64,000 nucleotides of DNA from the NCBI RefSeq assembly GCF_009914755.1, contig NC_060944.1. One strand, 5' to 3'. The stretch is from the human T2T-CHM13v2.0 reference genome, Homo sapiens. The translations under genes and the position numbers were made by a program. Under the pieces are notes generated by a model. That model was not told the DNA's origin and did no database searches. It saw nothing but the letters and a program-made list of their open reading frames with translations. This document shows, piece by piece, positions 9,335-13,180 of this stretch (position 1 is the first letter of the stretch; each line of letters starts with the position of its first letter).

Positions 9335-12300
9335 TATTTACAAATAGGCTAATTCACTAGCTCTAGTTTTTATCATAAGTTGTCACCCCATTCGTAAAGC
9401 TTAGATGTTGCAAAATAATAACTTTGTCCACAATGAACACAGGCACTTTACTAAAAACGCTCTTGTAGACCTGTGGTTATCATCTAAAACCATCGTCTAG
9501 ATATGGAGATACTAGCAAAGAGCCCTTCCCTTCACCCTTCCTCTTCTCCCTCTTCCACCATCCCCGTGACTAAGTACAGGATGTCTAGCTCCAAGGGGTG
9601 GACTAATAAAGGTCACTCCCAGAGGACAGGCCTTCCTAAAAACTAACAAAAGGACATTCACAAAGGGACTGATTTACTACATCTATTTTTAACATACTTT
9701 GAGCATTAAGACTTATCCTTTAATACACAATATTAACTAAAATGCACATATAGAACAATGGTTAGACCATCTGAACTAATCTCAGGAGCACAGAACCCCT
9801 CTCCCTGCATACCTCCTCTGCCCACCCCCCCTTCCCCCACCCCAAACACCCAATGAATAGTCTGCATTCGCTCCTAAGCATCAAGTTTTAACAATTCCAT
9901 TCCCAAATGCAACCACTCCTAGGAAGTACTGAAAACAAATGCTTAGAGGGGTGTTACTTAAGCCCTCTACTGTTAACCTACATTGTGCACTTTTTTTTTT
10001 GAAACGGAGCCTCGCTCTGTCGCCAGGCTGGAGTGCAGTGGTGCGATCTTGGCTCACTGCAACTTCCGCCTCCCAAGTTCAAGCGATTCTCCTGCCTCAG
10101 CCTCTCGAGTAACTGGGGCTACAGGTGGGCACCACCACGACCAGCTAATTTTTGTATTTTTAGTAAAGATGGGGTTTCACCATGTTGGCCAAGATGGTCC
10201 TGATCTCTTGACCTCGTGATCCGCCTGCCTCGGCCTCCCAAAGTGCTGGGATTACAGGCATGCGCCACTGCGACAGGCCGTTGTACACTTTTAAACACCT
10301 AGAAAGACTAGATGTTTCAAACTGGACTTAAGTTTTCCATTATATACACAGTAGCATTGAATAAATGGTATACATACATAACACAGACTGTAATTTGAGT
10401 GTCTTCTAAATAGGAACATTCTGGCCTAGAACCCTTCCCTTTCCCACCTCTACCAACCCCGTGGACAGCTATAAGCCATCTGTAATGCTTAGGGGGGGTT
10501 TTAACAATTTCACTTGTTTTTAAGAAGTCTTCCCTATGAATTTTAACACAAAGTGTACTCAATGTAGTAGTTTACTAATTCTACTTTTGTCATATACTGG
10601 CAACCTTTTTAACATCGACTAGACGTAAATTAGGACTCCTATGTCCGCTTATATACACTATATACACAGCACAGTAAATGAAAATGCAGACATAAGGGAC
10701 AATGGTCAATGTGCCTCCTCATAAACACACTGGACACTGGTAGAAAGCCCTTTGCACTTTGTGCTCCTCCTTCCCCCTGAACCAGCACAAATATCAAAAT
10801 GGGTACTGCTCAGAGAATTGATCAATTTCCAAGACAATATTTCATATCAAAAGGATAGCTACAAAATGTGTTATTTACTACCTCTACTTTTAACATACTT
10901 TGTGCACTTCTAAACATCTAGAAAGACTAGATGTTTCAAATAAGGACTTAAGTTTGTCCGCTATATACACAGTAGGGTTGAATAAACTACACACATGTAA
11001 CAATGGTTATATCTGATAGTGTCTTCTAAATACGAACATTCTGGTCTAGAACCCTTCATTCCTTCCAACTCCTCTCCACCACCAACCTGATGGATATAGG
11101 CACGTGTCACTTAGAGCTGATGTTATCTCACTTCCAAAAGTCCTTTTCAGAAGACAGCCTTTCTACAAATTTTAACAAAGTGTACAAAATGTGTTAGTTT
11201 ACTAACTCTACTTCTGTCATACATTGGCAACCTCTTTAATATCTAGAGACTAGATATTATAAAATCGGGACTAATTTGTCCGTTATATATACAATATATA
11301 CAGTATAGCAAAGTTAAATGAAATGCATGTAACATATACACAATGGATTAAGCTGAAATTTTCTAATAAACAATGGCAAAACACCATTTGCAATTTCTTC
11401 CCTCCCACCTCCCAGGTGGTTCAACAATTCCACTTCCAAACAGCATTTCCCATCAGTTTTTAAAAGCTATTTACAAAGTGTTATTCTACTACCACTTTTA
11501 AATACATCAAGCACTTCCAAATATCTAGAAAGACTAGATATTTCATATAACTTGTCCACCACATACACAGCACTGTTAAATAAAATTGCACACACATAAC
11601 AATGGTTATCATCTGAGGTATCTTCTAAATGTGGCCATTTTGGCCTTGAATCATTCCCTCCTCCCTTCCTTCTCTGCCTTCAATCCAGTGGACAAGTACA
11701 GGCACGTGTAATGCTTAGAGATGGTCAAACAAATTCCTATGCAAAAGTCTTTACAGAAGACAAGTTTTCCTACGAATTTCAACACAAAGTGTACAAAATA
11801 TGCTAATTTTACTCCTTTGTCATACACTGGCAACCTCTTTAACATCTAGAGACTAGATGTTGAAAAATTAGGACTATTTGTCCATTATATATACTATATA
11901 CAGAGCAAAACAAAATGCACAAAACATATAGAAAAATGGTGTCTGAAAATGTCCAAGTATGAACACACTAGTAATATTACCTTTTGCAATTTCTTCCCTC
12001 CTACCTCCTCTAAACTATTGAACAAGTATAGACATTACTATACTGTTCACAAAGGTGGCTTCACAATTCAATTTCCAAAAGCATTTCCTATGAATTTTAG
12101 CAAAAAGATATTTACAAAGTGGTATTTTACTACCTATACATTTAACATACATCGGGCACTTCTAAACATCTAGATAGACTAGATGTTTCAAGTAAGGAGT
12201 TAATTTGTCTACTATGTATACAGCAGTCTTGAATAAACTGCAAACATGTAACAACAGTTATAATTTGAAAGAGTCTTCCAAATGTGAACATTCTGGCCTA

Positions 12301-13180
12301 GAACCCTTCCCATCTCCATCAACCCAGAAGACATCAAATTTTCAGAAGACAATCTTTCCTAGGACTTGTAAAACAAAATGTACAAAATATATTAGTTTAC
12401 TAACTCTACTTTTGTCATACACTGGCAACCTCTTTAACATCCAGAAAGACTAGATGTTGTCAATTAGGACTCGTCTGTCCTTTATGTACACTATATACAC
12501 AGATAAGTAAAACAAAATGCACAGACATAATGATTCATCTTGCCTCGCTGTAAACAGGATGGCATAGAGCTCTCTGCACCTCCCCCTCCTCTCTCCTCCC
12601 CTGAACCACTGCACAAACACAATGAGTATTACTCAACAGGTGATTTGGCCATTCCCCCCCAAAAATATTTCCTATGAATTGTAACAAAAAGGTATTTACA
12701 AAATGTGATTTTGCTACCTCTAATTTTAACATATCAGGCACTTCAGAACATCTAAAAAGAAGAGACATTTCAAAAAAGCTTAGCATTGTCAACTATATAC
12801 ACAGTAGTGAGGAATAAAATGCACACAAAACAATGGATAGAATATGAAAATGTCTTCTAAATATGACCAGTCTAGCATAGAACCTTCTTCTCTTCCTTCT
12901 CAGGTCTTCCAGCTCCATGTCATCTAACCCACTTAACAAACGTGGACGTATCGCTTCCAGAGGCCGTCTTAACAACTCCATTTCCAAAAGTCATCTCCAG
13001 AAGACATGTATTTTCTATGATTTCTTTTAAACAAATGAGAATTTACAAGATGTGTAACTTTCTAACTCTATTTTATCATACGTCGGCAACCTCTTTCCAT
13101 CTAGAAGGGCTAGATGTGACAAATGTTTTCTATTAAAAGGTTGGGGTGGAGTTGAGAGCAGCTTTTTCATATTATATACA
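9335..13180 (-). promoter_or_regulatory. 15 perfect PUMILIO response elements (UGUANAUA in the RNA)
   Basis: Plus-strand TATNTACA starts at 9335, 10341, 10650, 10659, 10962, 11286, 11295, 11468, 11895, 12109, 12483, 12492, 12693, 12794 and 13173 (hand count). Confidence 0.93.
9991..10279 (-). mobile_element. Alu (AluSc-like) inside NORAD, sense to the lncRNA
   Basis: Full Alu dimer with poly(T) at 9991-10000. It has AluSc-like diagnostics (GATCACGAGGTCAAGAGATC; CCTGGCGACAGAG). The TSD is TTGTGCACTTT (~9983) / TTGTACACTTT (~10281). Confidence 0.9.

What the first reader, a model, noticed from the sequence alone, without database searches (positions are those of the whole stretch)
9335..13180. 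Multivalent PUMILIO-sequestering RNA: 15 perfect PREs on one intronless transcript (NORAD)
Seen: 15 exact TATNTACA matches (UGUANAUA on the minus-strand RNA) in ~3.85 kb, at fixed positions within repeat units. They sit inside a unit with its own CpG promoter and AATAAA and no long ORF. Established: UGUANAUA is the PUM1/PUM2 element, and NORAD is the lncRNA that sequesters PUMILIO (NORAD-PUM condensates) and supports genome stability. This is the strongest 'system' in the window, but it is already described, not new.
Basis: partly seen in the sequence, partly recalled or inferred. Interest (0 to 1): 0.9.

Follow-up and report, generated by a model that had tools for sequence, protein, structure and literature searches.

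The report
NORAD, the known PUMILIO decoy RNA

Summary
Confirmed and already known. The window has exactly 15 UGUANAUA sites on the minus strand between 9335 and 13180, against 0.6 expected and 1 on the opposite strand. Fourteen of the 15 fall in three fixed columns of a ~300-nt repeat unit. The units alternate as odd and even types, giving a ~600-nt higher-order repeat. The transcript has a CpG-island 5' end, a single AATAAA 24 nt before its 3' end, and no sense ORF over 108 aa. Its sequence and numbering match published NORAD alignments. Retrocopies elsewhere in the genome start at the annotated first base and end in poly(A), so the unspliced minus-strand RNA exists. The literature shows PUM CLIP over the sites, loss of function in a PRE mutant, and NORAD-PUM condensates. 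Two small additions. The published unit "NRU#10a" is the tail of NRU#10, displaced by a known Alu; ten older retrocopies keep the empty site. Retrocopies also suggest the human lineage lost three strict PREs and gained one relaxed PRE.

The parts
8598..13940 (-). NORAD transcript (5343 nt, single exon)
   Evidence: Hub annotation. Sequence and numbering match the published NORAD cmsearch rows. 4 of 4 retrocopies that reach the 5' end begin at base 1, and 3' ends fall at q5331-5343, most of them followed by A runs.
13200..14300 (.). CpG-island promoter and GC-rich 5' module
   Evidence: GC 0.64 and CpG o/e 0.81, against 0.47 and 0.32 for the window. PMC4947167 describes a single strong promoter over a CpG island.
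8622..8627 (-). Polyadenylation signal AAUAAA, the only one in the RNA, 24 nt before the 3' end
9151..13123 (-). Array of ~300-nt NORAD repeat units (RNA 818-4790 in my phase), alternating odd and even types
   Evidence: k-mer autocorrelation peaks near 300 nt and, more strongly, near 600, 1200 and 1800 nt. nhmmer finds 12 units plus a 43-nt piece. In the tree, even units form a clade at 99/98 and odd units at 82/84.
13173..13180 (-). PRE, NRU1 main cluster (RNA 761)
12794..12801 (-). PRE, NRU2 main cluster (RNA 1140)
12693..12700 (-). PRE, supplementary slot '2s' (RNA 1241)
12483..12499 (-). Two PREs 9 nt apart, NRU3 main cluster (RNA 1442, 1451)
12109..12116 (-). PRE, slot '4s' (RNA 1825)
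11895..11902 (-). PRE, NRU5 main cluster (RNA 2039). The second site of this cluster (11886-11893) is now UAUAUAUA.
11468..11475 (-). PRE, slot '6s' (RNA 2466)
11286..11302 (-). Two PREs 9 nt apart, NRU7 main cluster (RNA 2639, 2648)
10962..10969 (-). PRE, NRU8 main cluster (RNA 2972)
10650..10666 (-). Two PREs 9 nt apart, NRU9 main cluster (RNA 3275, 3284)
10341..10348 (-). PRE, NRU10 main cluster (RNA 3593)
9335..9342 (-). PRE, supplementary slot in the 3' part of NRU11 (RNA 4599)
10912..10936 (-). Example of the long unit hairpin (NRU8, AAACAUCUAG-UCUUU-CUAGAUGUUU)
   Evidence: Across 13 units, 83.2% of cells pair, against 29-50% when the 3' arm is slid. Pair 105-123 is CG in 8 units and UA in 2.
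9995..10278 (-). Sense-oriented Alu (284 nt) inserted into NRU10
   Evidence: Sub-threshold Metazoa_SRP hits; sequence. Ten older retrocopies have the site empty and three younger ones have it filled. Known from PMC6677556 and PMC11723954.
10279..10292 (-). Target-site duplication, 5' copy (AAAAGUGUACAACG)
9981..9994 (-). Target-site duplication, 3' copy (AAAAGUGCACAAUG)
9932..9994 (-). Published 'NRU#10a' (RNA 3947-4009), read here as the Alu-displaced continuation of NRU#10
   Evidence: The published hit covers only model positions 108-171 of 175 and starts at the first base of the 3' duplication copy. In empty-site retrocopies it directly follows the NRU10 hairpin.
12213..12222 (-). Lost PRE of NRU4 (now UGUAUACAUA; inferred ancestral UGUGUACAUA containing UGUACAUA)
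   Evidence: G at RNA 1722 in 10 of 13 retrocopies. The parent and the two youngest copies (L009, L027) have A, as does the older copy L021.
10856..10863 (-). Lost PRE of slot '8s' (now UGUAGCUA; inferred ancestral UGUAGAUA)
   Evidence: A at RNA 3083 in 10 of 10 copies of 85% identity or less, and 6 of those 10 still read UGUAGAUA.
11333..11340 (-). Relaxed PRE UGUAUAUG (RNA 2601), apparently created in the parent lineage by CC to UG
   Evidence: 0 of 13 retrocopies covering the site have UG at 2601-2602; 7 read CC in register.

Best explanation
Window 8598-13940 (minus strand) is human NORAD. It is an abundant, unspliced, polyadenylated, mainly cytoplasmic lncRNA made from a CpG-island promoter. 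Its central 4 kb is a tandem array of ~300-nt units arranged as odd/even dimers. The array displays 15 strict UGUANAUA sites (18 if UGUANAUN is allowed) at fixed slots, next to conserved hairpins. Each site is an eight-nucleotide PUMILIO response element, bound by the Pumilio homology domain of PUM1 or PUM2. Because one RNA carries many sites held close in space, NORAD captures PUM proteins. Together with PUM-PUM contacts through their disordered regions, this nucleates NORAD-PUM bodies, which lowers the pool of PUM free to repress its mRNA targets (mitotic, DNA-repair and replication factors) and so preserves chromosome stability. Shown here from sequence: identity of the locus, number, strand and slot positions of the sites, unit architecture, hairpin, transcript ends, and lack of coding potential. 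Shown in the literature: PUM binding, dependence on the PREs, condensates and the phenotype. Inferred: that each of the 15 sites is used.
For: Motif count, strand bias and shuffles. Fixed slots: 14 of 15 sites in three alignment columns. The two PRE slots overlap 2 of the 7 best-kept 8-column words among 301 windows of the unit alignment; the words are CTGTGTAT, intact in 7 of 12 units, and TTGTAAAT, intact in 6 of 12, against a naive expectation of 0.72. Identity with the published NORAD sequence and numbering. Transcript reality: retrocopies begin at base 1 in 4 of 4 cases, end at q5331-5343 (A runs follow in most), and L009 and L011 carry target-site duplications. Non-coding: longest sense ORF 108 aa, 0 of 8 ORFs with a Pfam family; PMC4947167 reports negative PhyloCSF scores. 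Literature, passages read: PUM2 PAR-CLIP over 10 of the 11 PREs in units 2-10, plus RIP (PMC4947167). The 18-site UGU-to-ACA mutant loses PUM1/2 binding and fails to suppress aneuploidy, while ND4 alone partly rescues (PMC6677556). Eight canonical clusters hold 11 of the 15 PREs and coincide with the main PUM1 CLIP peaks, and the PREs cluster in space (PMC7617650). NP bodies form in a PRE-number-dependent way (review PMC8594465).
Against: Nothing in the sequence argues against identity. On mechanism, about 400 copies x 18 sites gives about 7,200 PREs, against an estimated 130,000-325,000 in the transcriptome, so plain titration looks insufficient; this is the argument for condensates (PMC8594465). 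The four supplementary PREs show weak or no CLIP signal (PMC7617650), so not all 15 sites may be used. A nuclear RBMX-based role was proposed for the 5' region, and STAT3 binding downstream of the Alu has been reported. The two primary papers, Lee 2016 (PMC4715682) and Elguindy & Mendell 2021 (PMC8266761), are not held, so I know them only through papers that cite them. No binding or expression data can be examined with these tools.
Confidence: 0.96

Rival explanations
1. The PRE array acts by simple one-to-one competitive titration of PUM, with no need for condensates or RNA architecture.
For: Multivalent decoy logic alone explains the de-repression of PUM targets after NORAD overexpression and their stronger repression after its loss (PMC4947167). 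About 7,200 sites against about 17,000 PUM molecules is the same order of magnitude (PMC8594465).
Against: The transcriptome holds an estimated 130,000-325,000 PREs. [quoted passage not shown]
Confidence: 0.2
2. The PREs mainly make NORAD a substrate of PUM-directed decay, so that PUM regulates NORAD rather than the reverse.
For: PREs in 3' UTRs normally trigger deadenylation and decay (PMC6677556). Removing the 3' module raises NORAD expression (PMC7617650).
Against: NORAD was no more sensitive to PUM1/2 knockdown or overexpression than targets with few PREs (PMC4947167). The PRE mutant loses function rather than gaining it.
Confidence: 0.03
3. NORAD's essential role is nuclear, through RBMX binding at the 5' end, and the PRE array is secondary.
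For: RBMX binds the first ~900 nt (cited in PMC6677556).
Against: A 5' deletion lacking the RBMX site fully rescues aneuploidy, while the PRE mutant does not. 10 of 11 FISH probes give a mainly cytoplasmic signal (PMC6677556).
Confidence: 0.03
4. The motif excess is a by-product of AT-rich tandem duplication or a transposon, with no selection for PUM binding.
For: The 15 sites derive from about three ancestral sites copied by unit duplication, so raw shuffle statistics overstate independence.
Against: Units have diverged to 51-80% pairwise identity, yet the PRE words are among the best kept. The bias is 15 to 1 between strands although TATATA is symmetric. Retrocopies lose PREs with age, for example 10 strict sites in the 89% copy. 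CLIP and mutant data are in print.
Confidence: 0.01

Closest known systems
NORAD / LINC00657 (NR_027451), as described by Lee 2016, Tichon 2016, Elguindy 2019/2021 and the 2024 NSMB structural paper (PMC7617650)
   Same: It is this gene. It has the same sequence and numbering, 15 strict PREs (11 in eight main clusters plus 4 supplementary), 18 relaxed PREs, ~300-nt NRUs, ~600-nt ND dimers (NRU7+8 = ND4), hairpins, an Alu, a CpG promoter and a single poly(A) site.
   Different: There are only small differences of description. In this window the '8s' slot reads UGUAGCUA and the fourth supplementary strict PRE is at RNA 4599 (NRU11), whereas PMC7617650 places the four in NRUs 2, 4, 6 and 8. I also read 'NRU#10a' of PMC8192489 as part of NRU#10, which gives 13 unit cores rather than 14.
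HCG11 and other NORAD processed retrocopies
   Same: L011 (C6:26.39M) is 91.9% identical, spans 5670 nt and has 16 strict sense PREs. This matches the published HCG11 figures of 91% identity, 5,696 nt, 16 PREs and location 6p22.2 (PMC7976429). It starts at NORAD base 1, ends in poly(A) and carries the Alu.
   Different: These are retrocopies without the parental promoter. HCG11 is expressed about 20-fold lower (PMC4947167). PRE content decays with age in the other copies.
PUM-target mRNA 3' UTRs with PREs
   Same: They carry the same eight-nucleotide element and are read by the same proteins.
   Different: 3' UTRs usually carry one or a few sites and are destabilised. NORAD carries 15-18 in a structured repeat and is reported to resist PUM-driven decay and to nucleate condensates, which multi-PRE UTRs do not.
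Other multivalent decoy RNAs, such as the circular miR-7 sponge CDR1as (recalled; cited as refs b7-b8 of PMC4947167, reference list seen)
   Same: Many copies of one short recognition element sit on a stable non-coding RNA that titrates a trans-acting repressor.
   Different: That RNA binds a microRNA-Argonaute complex, not an RNA-binding protein domain. It has no NRU-type repeat unit. I made no sequence comparison here.

Membership tests
Human NORAD gene | Sequence identity and collinearity with the reference NORAD transcript | tested here: met
   Window RNA 2930-2960, 3546-3580 and 3947-4009 read the same, by eye, as the NORAD rows at the same coordinates in the cmsearch file of PMC8192489. 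The NRU_10 row matches window 10360-10272. The hub annotation agrees.
Human NORAD gene | Single-exon transcript with a CpG-island promoter and one canonical poly(A) site | tested here: met
   CpG o/e 0.81 at 13200-14300 and a single AAUAAA 24 nt from the end. Retrocopies are collinear with the whole 5.3 kb with no intron-sized gaps, and 4 of 4 start at base 1. No direct RNA data are available here.
Human NORAD gene | At least 12 repeat units of ~300 nt with PRE, short stem-loop, U-rich stretch and long hairpin | tested here: met
   12 units plus a split one by nhmmer. The long hairpin pairs in 83.2% of cells, with covariation. The short stem-loop was seen in the alignment but not counted, because the register is imperfect.
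PUMILIO decoy / sponge RNA | Many consensus PREs on the transcribed strand, far above chance | tested here: met
   15 sense against 0.63 expected, and 1 antisense.
PUMILIO decoy / sponge RNA | Direct PUM1/PUM2 occupancy of the sites in cells | not testable with these tools
   Literature only: PAR-CLIP, RIP and CLIP peaks (PMC4947167, PMC6677556, PMC7617650).
PUMILIO decoy / sponge RNA | Function depends on the PREs | not testable with these tools
   Literature only: the PREmut construct fails to rescue (PMC6677556).
Protein-coding gene (considered and rejected) | A long conserved ORF with a recognisable domain | tested here: not met
   The longest sense ORF is 108 aa, in the GC-rich 5' end. 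0 of the 8 ORFs submitted (of 10 listed) have a Pfam family at E<=0.01.
Curated Rfam family | Match to an Rfam covariance model | tested here: not met
   The only hits in 7500-15000 are sub-threshold Alu-type ones (Metazoa_SRP, mir-1268, mir-3135). No NORAD model matched.

The most novel reading that the evidence does not exclude
The 15 PREs are what is left of a more regular array. Each ~600-nt dimer once carried four strict PREs: one main and one supplementary site in the even unit core, and a 9-nt-spaced pair in the odd core. That gives at least 18 strict sites at the time of the older retrocopies. In the lineage leading to humans, NORAD then lost three strict PREs (NRU4, the second site of NRU5, and slot 8s) and took an Alu into NRU10. 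It also gained a relaxed PRE 38 nt upstream of the NRU7 pair through an adjacent CC-to-UG change. On this reading, selection acts on overall PRE dosage and spacing, not on every site. Separately, the published 'NRU#10a' is not a repeat unit but the Alu-displaced tail of NRU#10. The array therefore has 13 unit cores, and its 'regular spacing' across that gap exists because an Alu happens to be about one unit long.
Probability: 0.5. Interest if true: 0.3.

Novelty: already known. Interest (0 to 1): 0.15.

Why it matters
NORAD is one of the few lncRNAs whose mechanism is understood from sequence to phenotype, so recognising it from raw sequence is a useful positive control for the scan. It adds nothing to the field. 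The two additions are modest but usable. First, counting 13 unit cores rather than 14, and recognising that the apparent regular spacing across NRU10 to NRU10b comes from an Alu insertion, affects structural models that interpret unit spacing. Second, the retrocopy series gives a dated, within-genome record of PRE gain and loss. This makes it possible to test whether PRE number is under dosage selection. It also shows that HCG11 keeps two ancestral PREs that NORAD itself has lost.

Tried and rejected
- Tandem Repeats Finder found no long-period array, only short runs, because the units are too diverged. I replaced it with k-mer autocorrelation and iterated nhmmer.
- Rfam has no NORAD family; only sub-threshold Alu-type hits appeared.
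- Lee 2016 (PMC4715682) and Elguindy & Mendell 2021 (PMC8266761) are not held. Their content is taken only from citing papers.
- A paper reading term containing '#' was rejected and resent without the sign.
- A scan for p53 response elements (two RRRCWWGYYY halves, spacer 0-3, at most 2 mismatches) found none in 12900-17000. It found two elsewhere in the window, at 29641 and 62327. This says nothing firm about p53 control.
- The site-by-site PRE table for retrocopies was misleading. In the UGUGUAUAUA context an A/G change moves the PRE by 2 nt without losing it, as at NRU2 and NRU7. I replaced it with counts per cluster.
- Retrocopies keep 102 of 190 covered sites against 72.9 expected from identity^7. 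I do not read this as selection, because the identity figure includes fast-decaying CpG sites and indels while PREs contain no CpG.
- An ancestral PRE in NRU6 is seen in only 2 of 13 copies, the two oldest. CpG decay offers an alternative path, so I leave this undecided.
- In the short stem-loop (GGAC...GUCC) the MAFFT register shifts between units, so I did not count pairs there.
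Full report
**Observation.** The pattern TGTANATA occurs 26 times on both strands of the 64-kb window, against 4.19 +/- 1.86 expected; 0 of 100 shuffles reach 26.
- Fifteen matches lie on the minus strand between 9335 and 13180. The finding's coordinates are exactly the outer bases of the first and last site.
- One more match lies antisense inside the gene (9174, +). The other ten are scattered over the remaining ~58 kb.
- The annotated transcript is 8598-13940 on the minus strand, 5343 nt. In 2000 dinucleotide-preserving shuffles of it the mean is 0.63 sense sites, with a maximum of 5.
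- UGUANAUA is the most frequent XXXXNXXX word in the RNA.
- The excess is strand-specific and tied to the UGU part. TATATA is symmetric at 13 per strand, and single-base variants of UGU occur 0-3 times each.
- Allowing UGUANAUN gives 18 sites, which is the number mutated in the published PRE-mutant construct (PMC6677556, passages).

**Anatomy of the repeat array.** Shared 8-mers peak at offsets near 300 nt and, more strongly, near 600, 1200 and 1800 nt.
- Iterated nhmmer resolves twelve ~300-nt units plus a 43-nt fragment, between RNA 818 and 4790.
- In their alignment, 14 of the 15 PREs occupy three slots. These are a 'supplementary' slot (UUUUGUAAAUA, 4 sites), the main slot (CUGUGUAUAUAG, 7 sites) and a second main site 9 nt downstream (3 sites).
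- The 15th PRE (RNA 761) sits in the same context just 5' of my first unit and inside the published NRU#1 hit.
- This reproduces the published description: eight canonical clusters holding 11 of the 15 PREs, plus four supplementary PREs (PMC7617650, passages).
- Units two apart are more alike than neighbours, at about 72% against about 62% identity. In a maximum-likelihood tree the even units form a clade (99/98) and the odd units another (82/84).
- The array is therefore a dimeric higher-order repeat. This reconciles the ~300-nt NRUs of Tichon 2016 with the five larger 'NORAD domains' of the Mendell group; ND4 spans nt 2494-3156 and equals NRU7+8.
- Even units in my phase carry up to three PREs and odd units carry one.
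- The long hairpin that opens each unit pairs in 83.2% of cells across 13 units, against 29-50% when the 3' arm is slid. It shows CG-to-UA covariation, as Tichon 2016 reported.
- Words overlapping the two PRE slots are among the best kept of 301 windows of the unit alignment.

**Transcript features.**
- Window 13200-14300 is a CpG island, with GC 0.64 and CpG o/e 0.81.
- The only AAUAAA in the RNA lies 24 nt before the annotated end.
- The longest sense ATG ORF is 108 aa. None of the 8 ORFs I submitted, of 10 listed, has a Pfam family.
- Rfam has no model that matches beyond Alu-type sub-threshold hits.

**Identity.** Three stretches of the window RNA read identically, at the same coordinates, to the 'NORAD' rows in the cmsearch output deposited with PMC8192489 (supplement read). 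This agrees with the hub annotation.

**Retrocopies as independent evidence for the transcript.** The own genome holds many copies of this RNA. I fetched 20 regions.
- Four of four copies that reach the 5' end start at the annotated first base.
- 3' ends fall at q5331-5343, followed by A runs in most copies.
- L009 and L011 carry flanking target-site duplications.
- The long copies are collinear with the whole 5.3 kb.
- These are the marks of retroposition of a full-length, unspliced, polyadenylated minus-strand RNA made in the germline. PMC4947167 mentions four pseudogenes of over 90% identity, including HCG11.
- L011 fits the published HCG11 figures. It is 91.9% identical, spans 5670 nt and has 16 strict PREs, against the published 91%, 5,696 nt, 16 PREs and location 6p22.2.

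**Mechanism.** This part comes from the literature, not from my calls.
- PUM2 PAR-CLIP sites overlap 10 of the 11 PREs in units 2-10, and NORAD co-precipitates with PUM1/2 (PMC4947167).
- Mutating UGU to ACA in 18 PREs abolishes PUM binding and the ability to suppress aneuploidy. Deleting the RBMX-binding 5' end does not, and ND4 alone partly rescues (PMC6677556).
- PRE clusters are brought together in space. NRU7+8 with their structured linker suffice to de-repress a reporter, and single units do not (PMC7617650).
- About 7,200 NORAD PREs face an estimated 130,000-325,000 PREs in the transcriptome. This motivates the condensate (NP body) model, in which multivalent RNA binding plus PUM disordered-region contacts sequester PUM beyond simple stoichiometry (review PMC8594465; PMC7617650).
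- I could not read Lee 2016 or Elguindy & Mendell 2021, which are not held.

**Addition 1: the Alu and 'NRU#10a'.** A 284-nt sense Alu lies at window 9995-10278. It is flanked by AAAAGUGUACAACG and AAAAGUGCACAAUG.
- The Alu itself is known (PMC6677556; PMC11723954).
- My unit model stops at the first flank (model position 43) and resumes at the second (model position 30). The Alu therefore splits one unit.
- Its own cmsearch file shows 10a as NORAD 3947-4009, E = 0.0027. The hit covers only model positions 108-171 of 175 and starts at the first base of the 3' duplication copy.
- NRU#10 in the same file (3546-3689) covers model positions 3-148 and runs 27 nt into the Alu.
- The retrocopies settle the matter. 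All 10 copies of 89% identity or less that cover the site lack the Alu. Five of them have exactly one 14-nt copy of the duplicated sequence between the flanks, followed directly by the '10a' sequence.
- All 3 copies of 92% identity or more have the filled site, at 313-323 nt. L023 has a deletion there and could not be scored.
- So 10a is the displaced tail of NRU#10, and the array has 13 unit cores.
- The text of PMC8192489 contains no 'primate' or 'transposable', and its only whole-word 'Alu' is in a reference.
- Of the 4 papers holding NORAD, NRU, Alu and Pumilio together, I opened 3. In those the only 'Alu' is in a reference title. The fourth, PMC11602169, I did not open.
- I found no statement of this point in print in searches. 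The supplementary PDF of PMC8192489 could not be read.

**Addition 2: PRE turnover.** I used the retrocopies as dated snapshots, ordered by identity to the parent, and scored PREs per cluster.

| Event | Evidence from retrocopies | Timing by copy identity |
|---|---|---|
| Slot 8s lost (parent UGUAGCUA) | A at RNA 3083 in 10 of 10 copies of 85% or less; 6 of those still read UGUAGAUA. C in L012, L010 and L009; T in L011 | Between the ~85% and 89% copies |
| Alu inserted into NRU10 | Empty in L012 (89.3%) and older copies; filled in L010 and L011 | Between 89.3% and ~92% |
| NRU4 main PRE lost (ancestral UGUACAUA) | G at RNA 1722 in 10 of 13 copies. The parent, the youngest copies L009 (96.1%) and L027 (96.9%), and the older copy L021 have A | Between ~92% and 96% |
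| Second site of NRU5 lost (ancestral UGUAUAUA) | G at RNA 2049 in 10 of 13 copies, including L009. A in the parent, L027 and L018 | After L009 |
| Relaxed PRE UGUAUAUG at RNA 2601 gained | 0 of 13 copies have UG at 2601-2602; 7 read CC in register | Arose in the parent lineage |

- At NRU4, a neighbouring change in the parent, L009 and L027 also breaks the GGAC arm of the short stem-loop.
- The Alu timing is in line with its reported presence in human and rhesus and absence in a New World monkey (PMC11723954).
- At the time of the older copies NORAD thus had at least 18 strict PREs, in a regular pattern of four per dimer.
- These are inferences from paralogous copies within one genome. Independent identical mutations, secondary retroposition from an expressed copy, or gene conversion could mislead at single sites, and I had no cross-species alignment.

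**Verdict.** The system is already known, down to the count of 15. The two additions are refinements of description. They do not change what the element is or how it works.

Noticed in passing
window 9932-9994 and 9995-10292: The published 'NRU#10a' (PMC8192489) starts at the first base after the Alu, at the 3' target-site duplication copy, and covers only the 3' third of the unit model. Ten older retrocopies show the uninterrupted unit.
   Followed up: yes
window 12213-12222, 11886-11893, 10856-10863, 11333-11340: Retrocopies indicate that the human lineage lost three strict PREs (NRU4, the second site of NRU5, slot 8s). They also indicate that it gained a relaxed one (UGUAUAUG) by an adjacent CC-to-UG change.
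   Followed up: partly
window 10856-10863 versus 9335-9342: PMC7617650 places the four supplementary PREs in the 3' parts of NRUs 2, 4, 6 and 8. In this sequence the NRU8 slot reads UGUAGCUA, which is not a PRE, and the fourth supplementary strict PRE is in NRU11 (RNA 4599). The discrepancy is unresolved.
   Followed up: partly
L011 (G000:C6:26389900-26396000): This is probably HCG11. It is 91.9% identical, spans 5670 nt and has 16 strict sense PREs. It keeps the NRU4 PRE and the second NRU5 PRE that NORAD has lost, and it contains the Alu.
   Followed up: partly
L014 and L015 (G000:C3:136530000-136544300): One old retrocopy (~84% identity) is split by about 8.6 kb of inserted DNA between NORAD positions ~2971 and ~2962. 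Several other old copies (L016-L020, L024) carry their own later Alu insertions, in either orientation.
   Followed up: no
window 12794-12803 and 11286-11295: In the context UGUGUAUAUA / UGUAUAUAUA, an A/G change at the fourth base moves the PRE by 2 nt without destroying it. Parent and retrocopies differ in this way at NRU2 and NRU7.
   Followed up: partly
window 12693-12700 (RNA 1246): Three retrocopies of different ages (L010, L012, L025) share the same A-to-G change in slot 2s (UGUAAGUA). This could be recurrent mutation or a shared source allele.
   Followed up: no
window 7995-8243 (+): A second Alu-type element (sub-threshold Metazoa_SRP and mir-1268 hits) lies about 350 bp beyond the NORAD 3' end, on the opposite strand.
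   Followed up: no
window 8598-13940: An AU-rich 5.3-kb RNA contains only one AAUAAA, at its true end. GC skew on the plus strand is negative across the whole transcribed body, so the RNA is G-rich relative to C.
   Followed up: no
window 29641 and 62327: These are the only two p53-consensus-like full sites (at most 2 mismatches) in the window. There are none within 3 kb upstream of the NORAD start.
   Followed up: no
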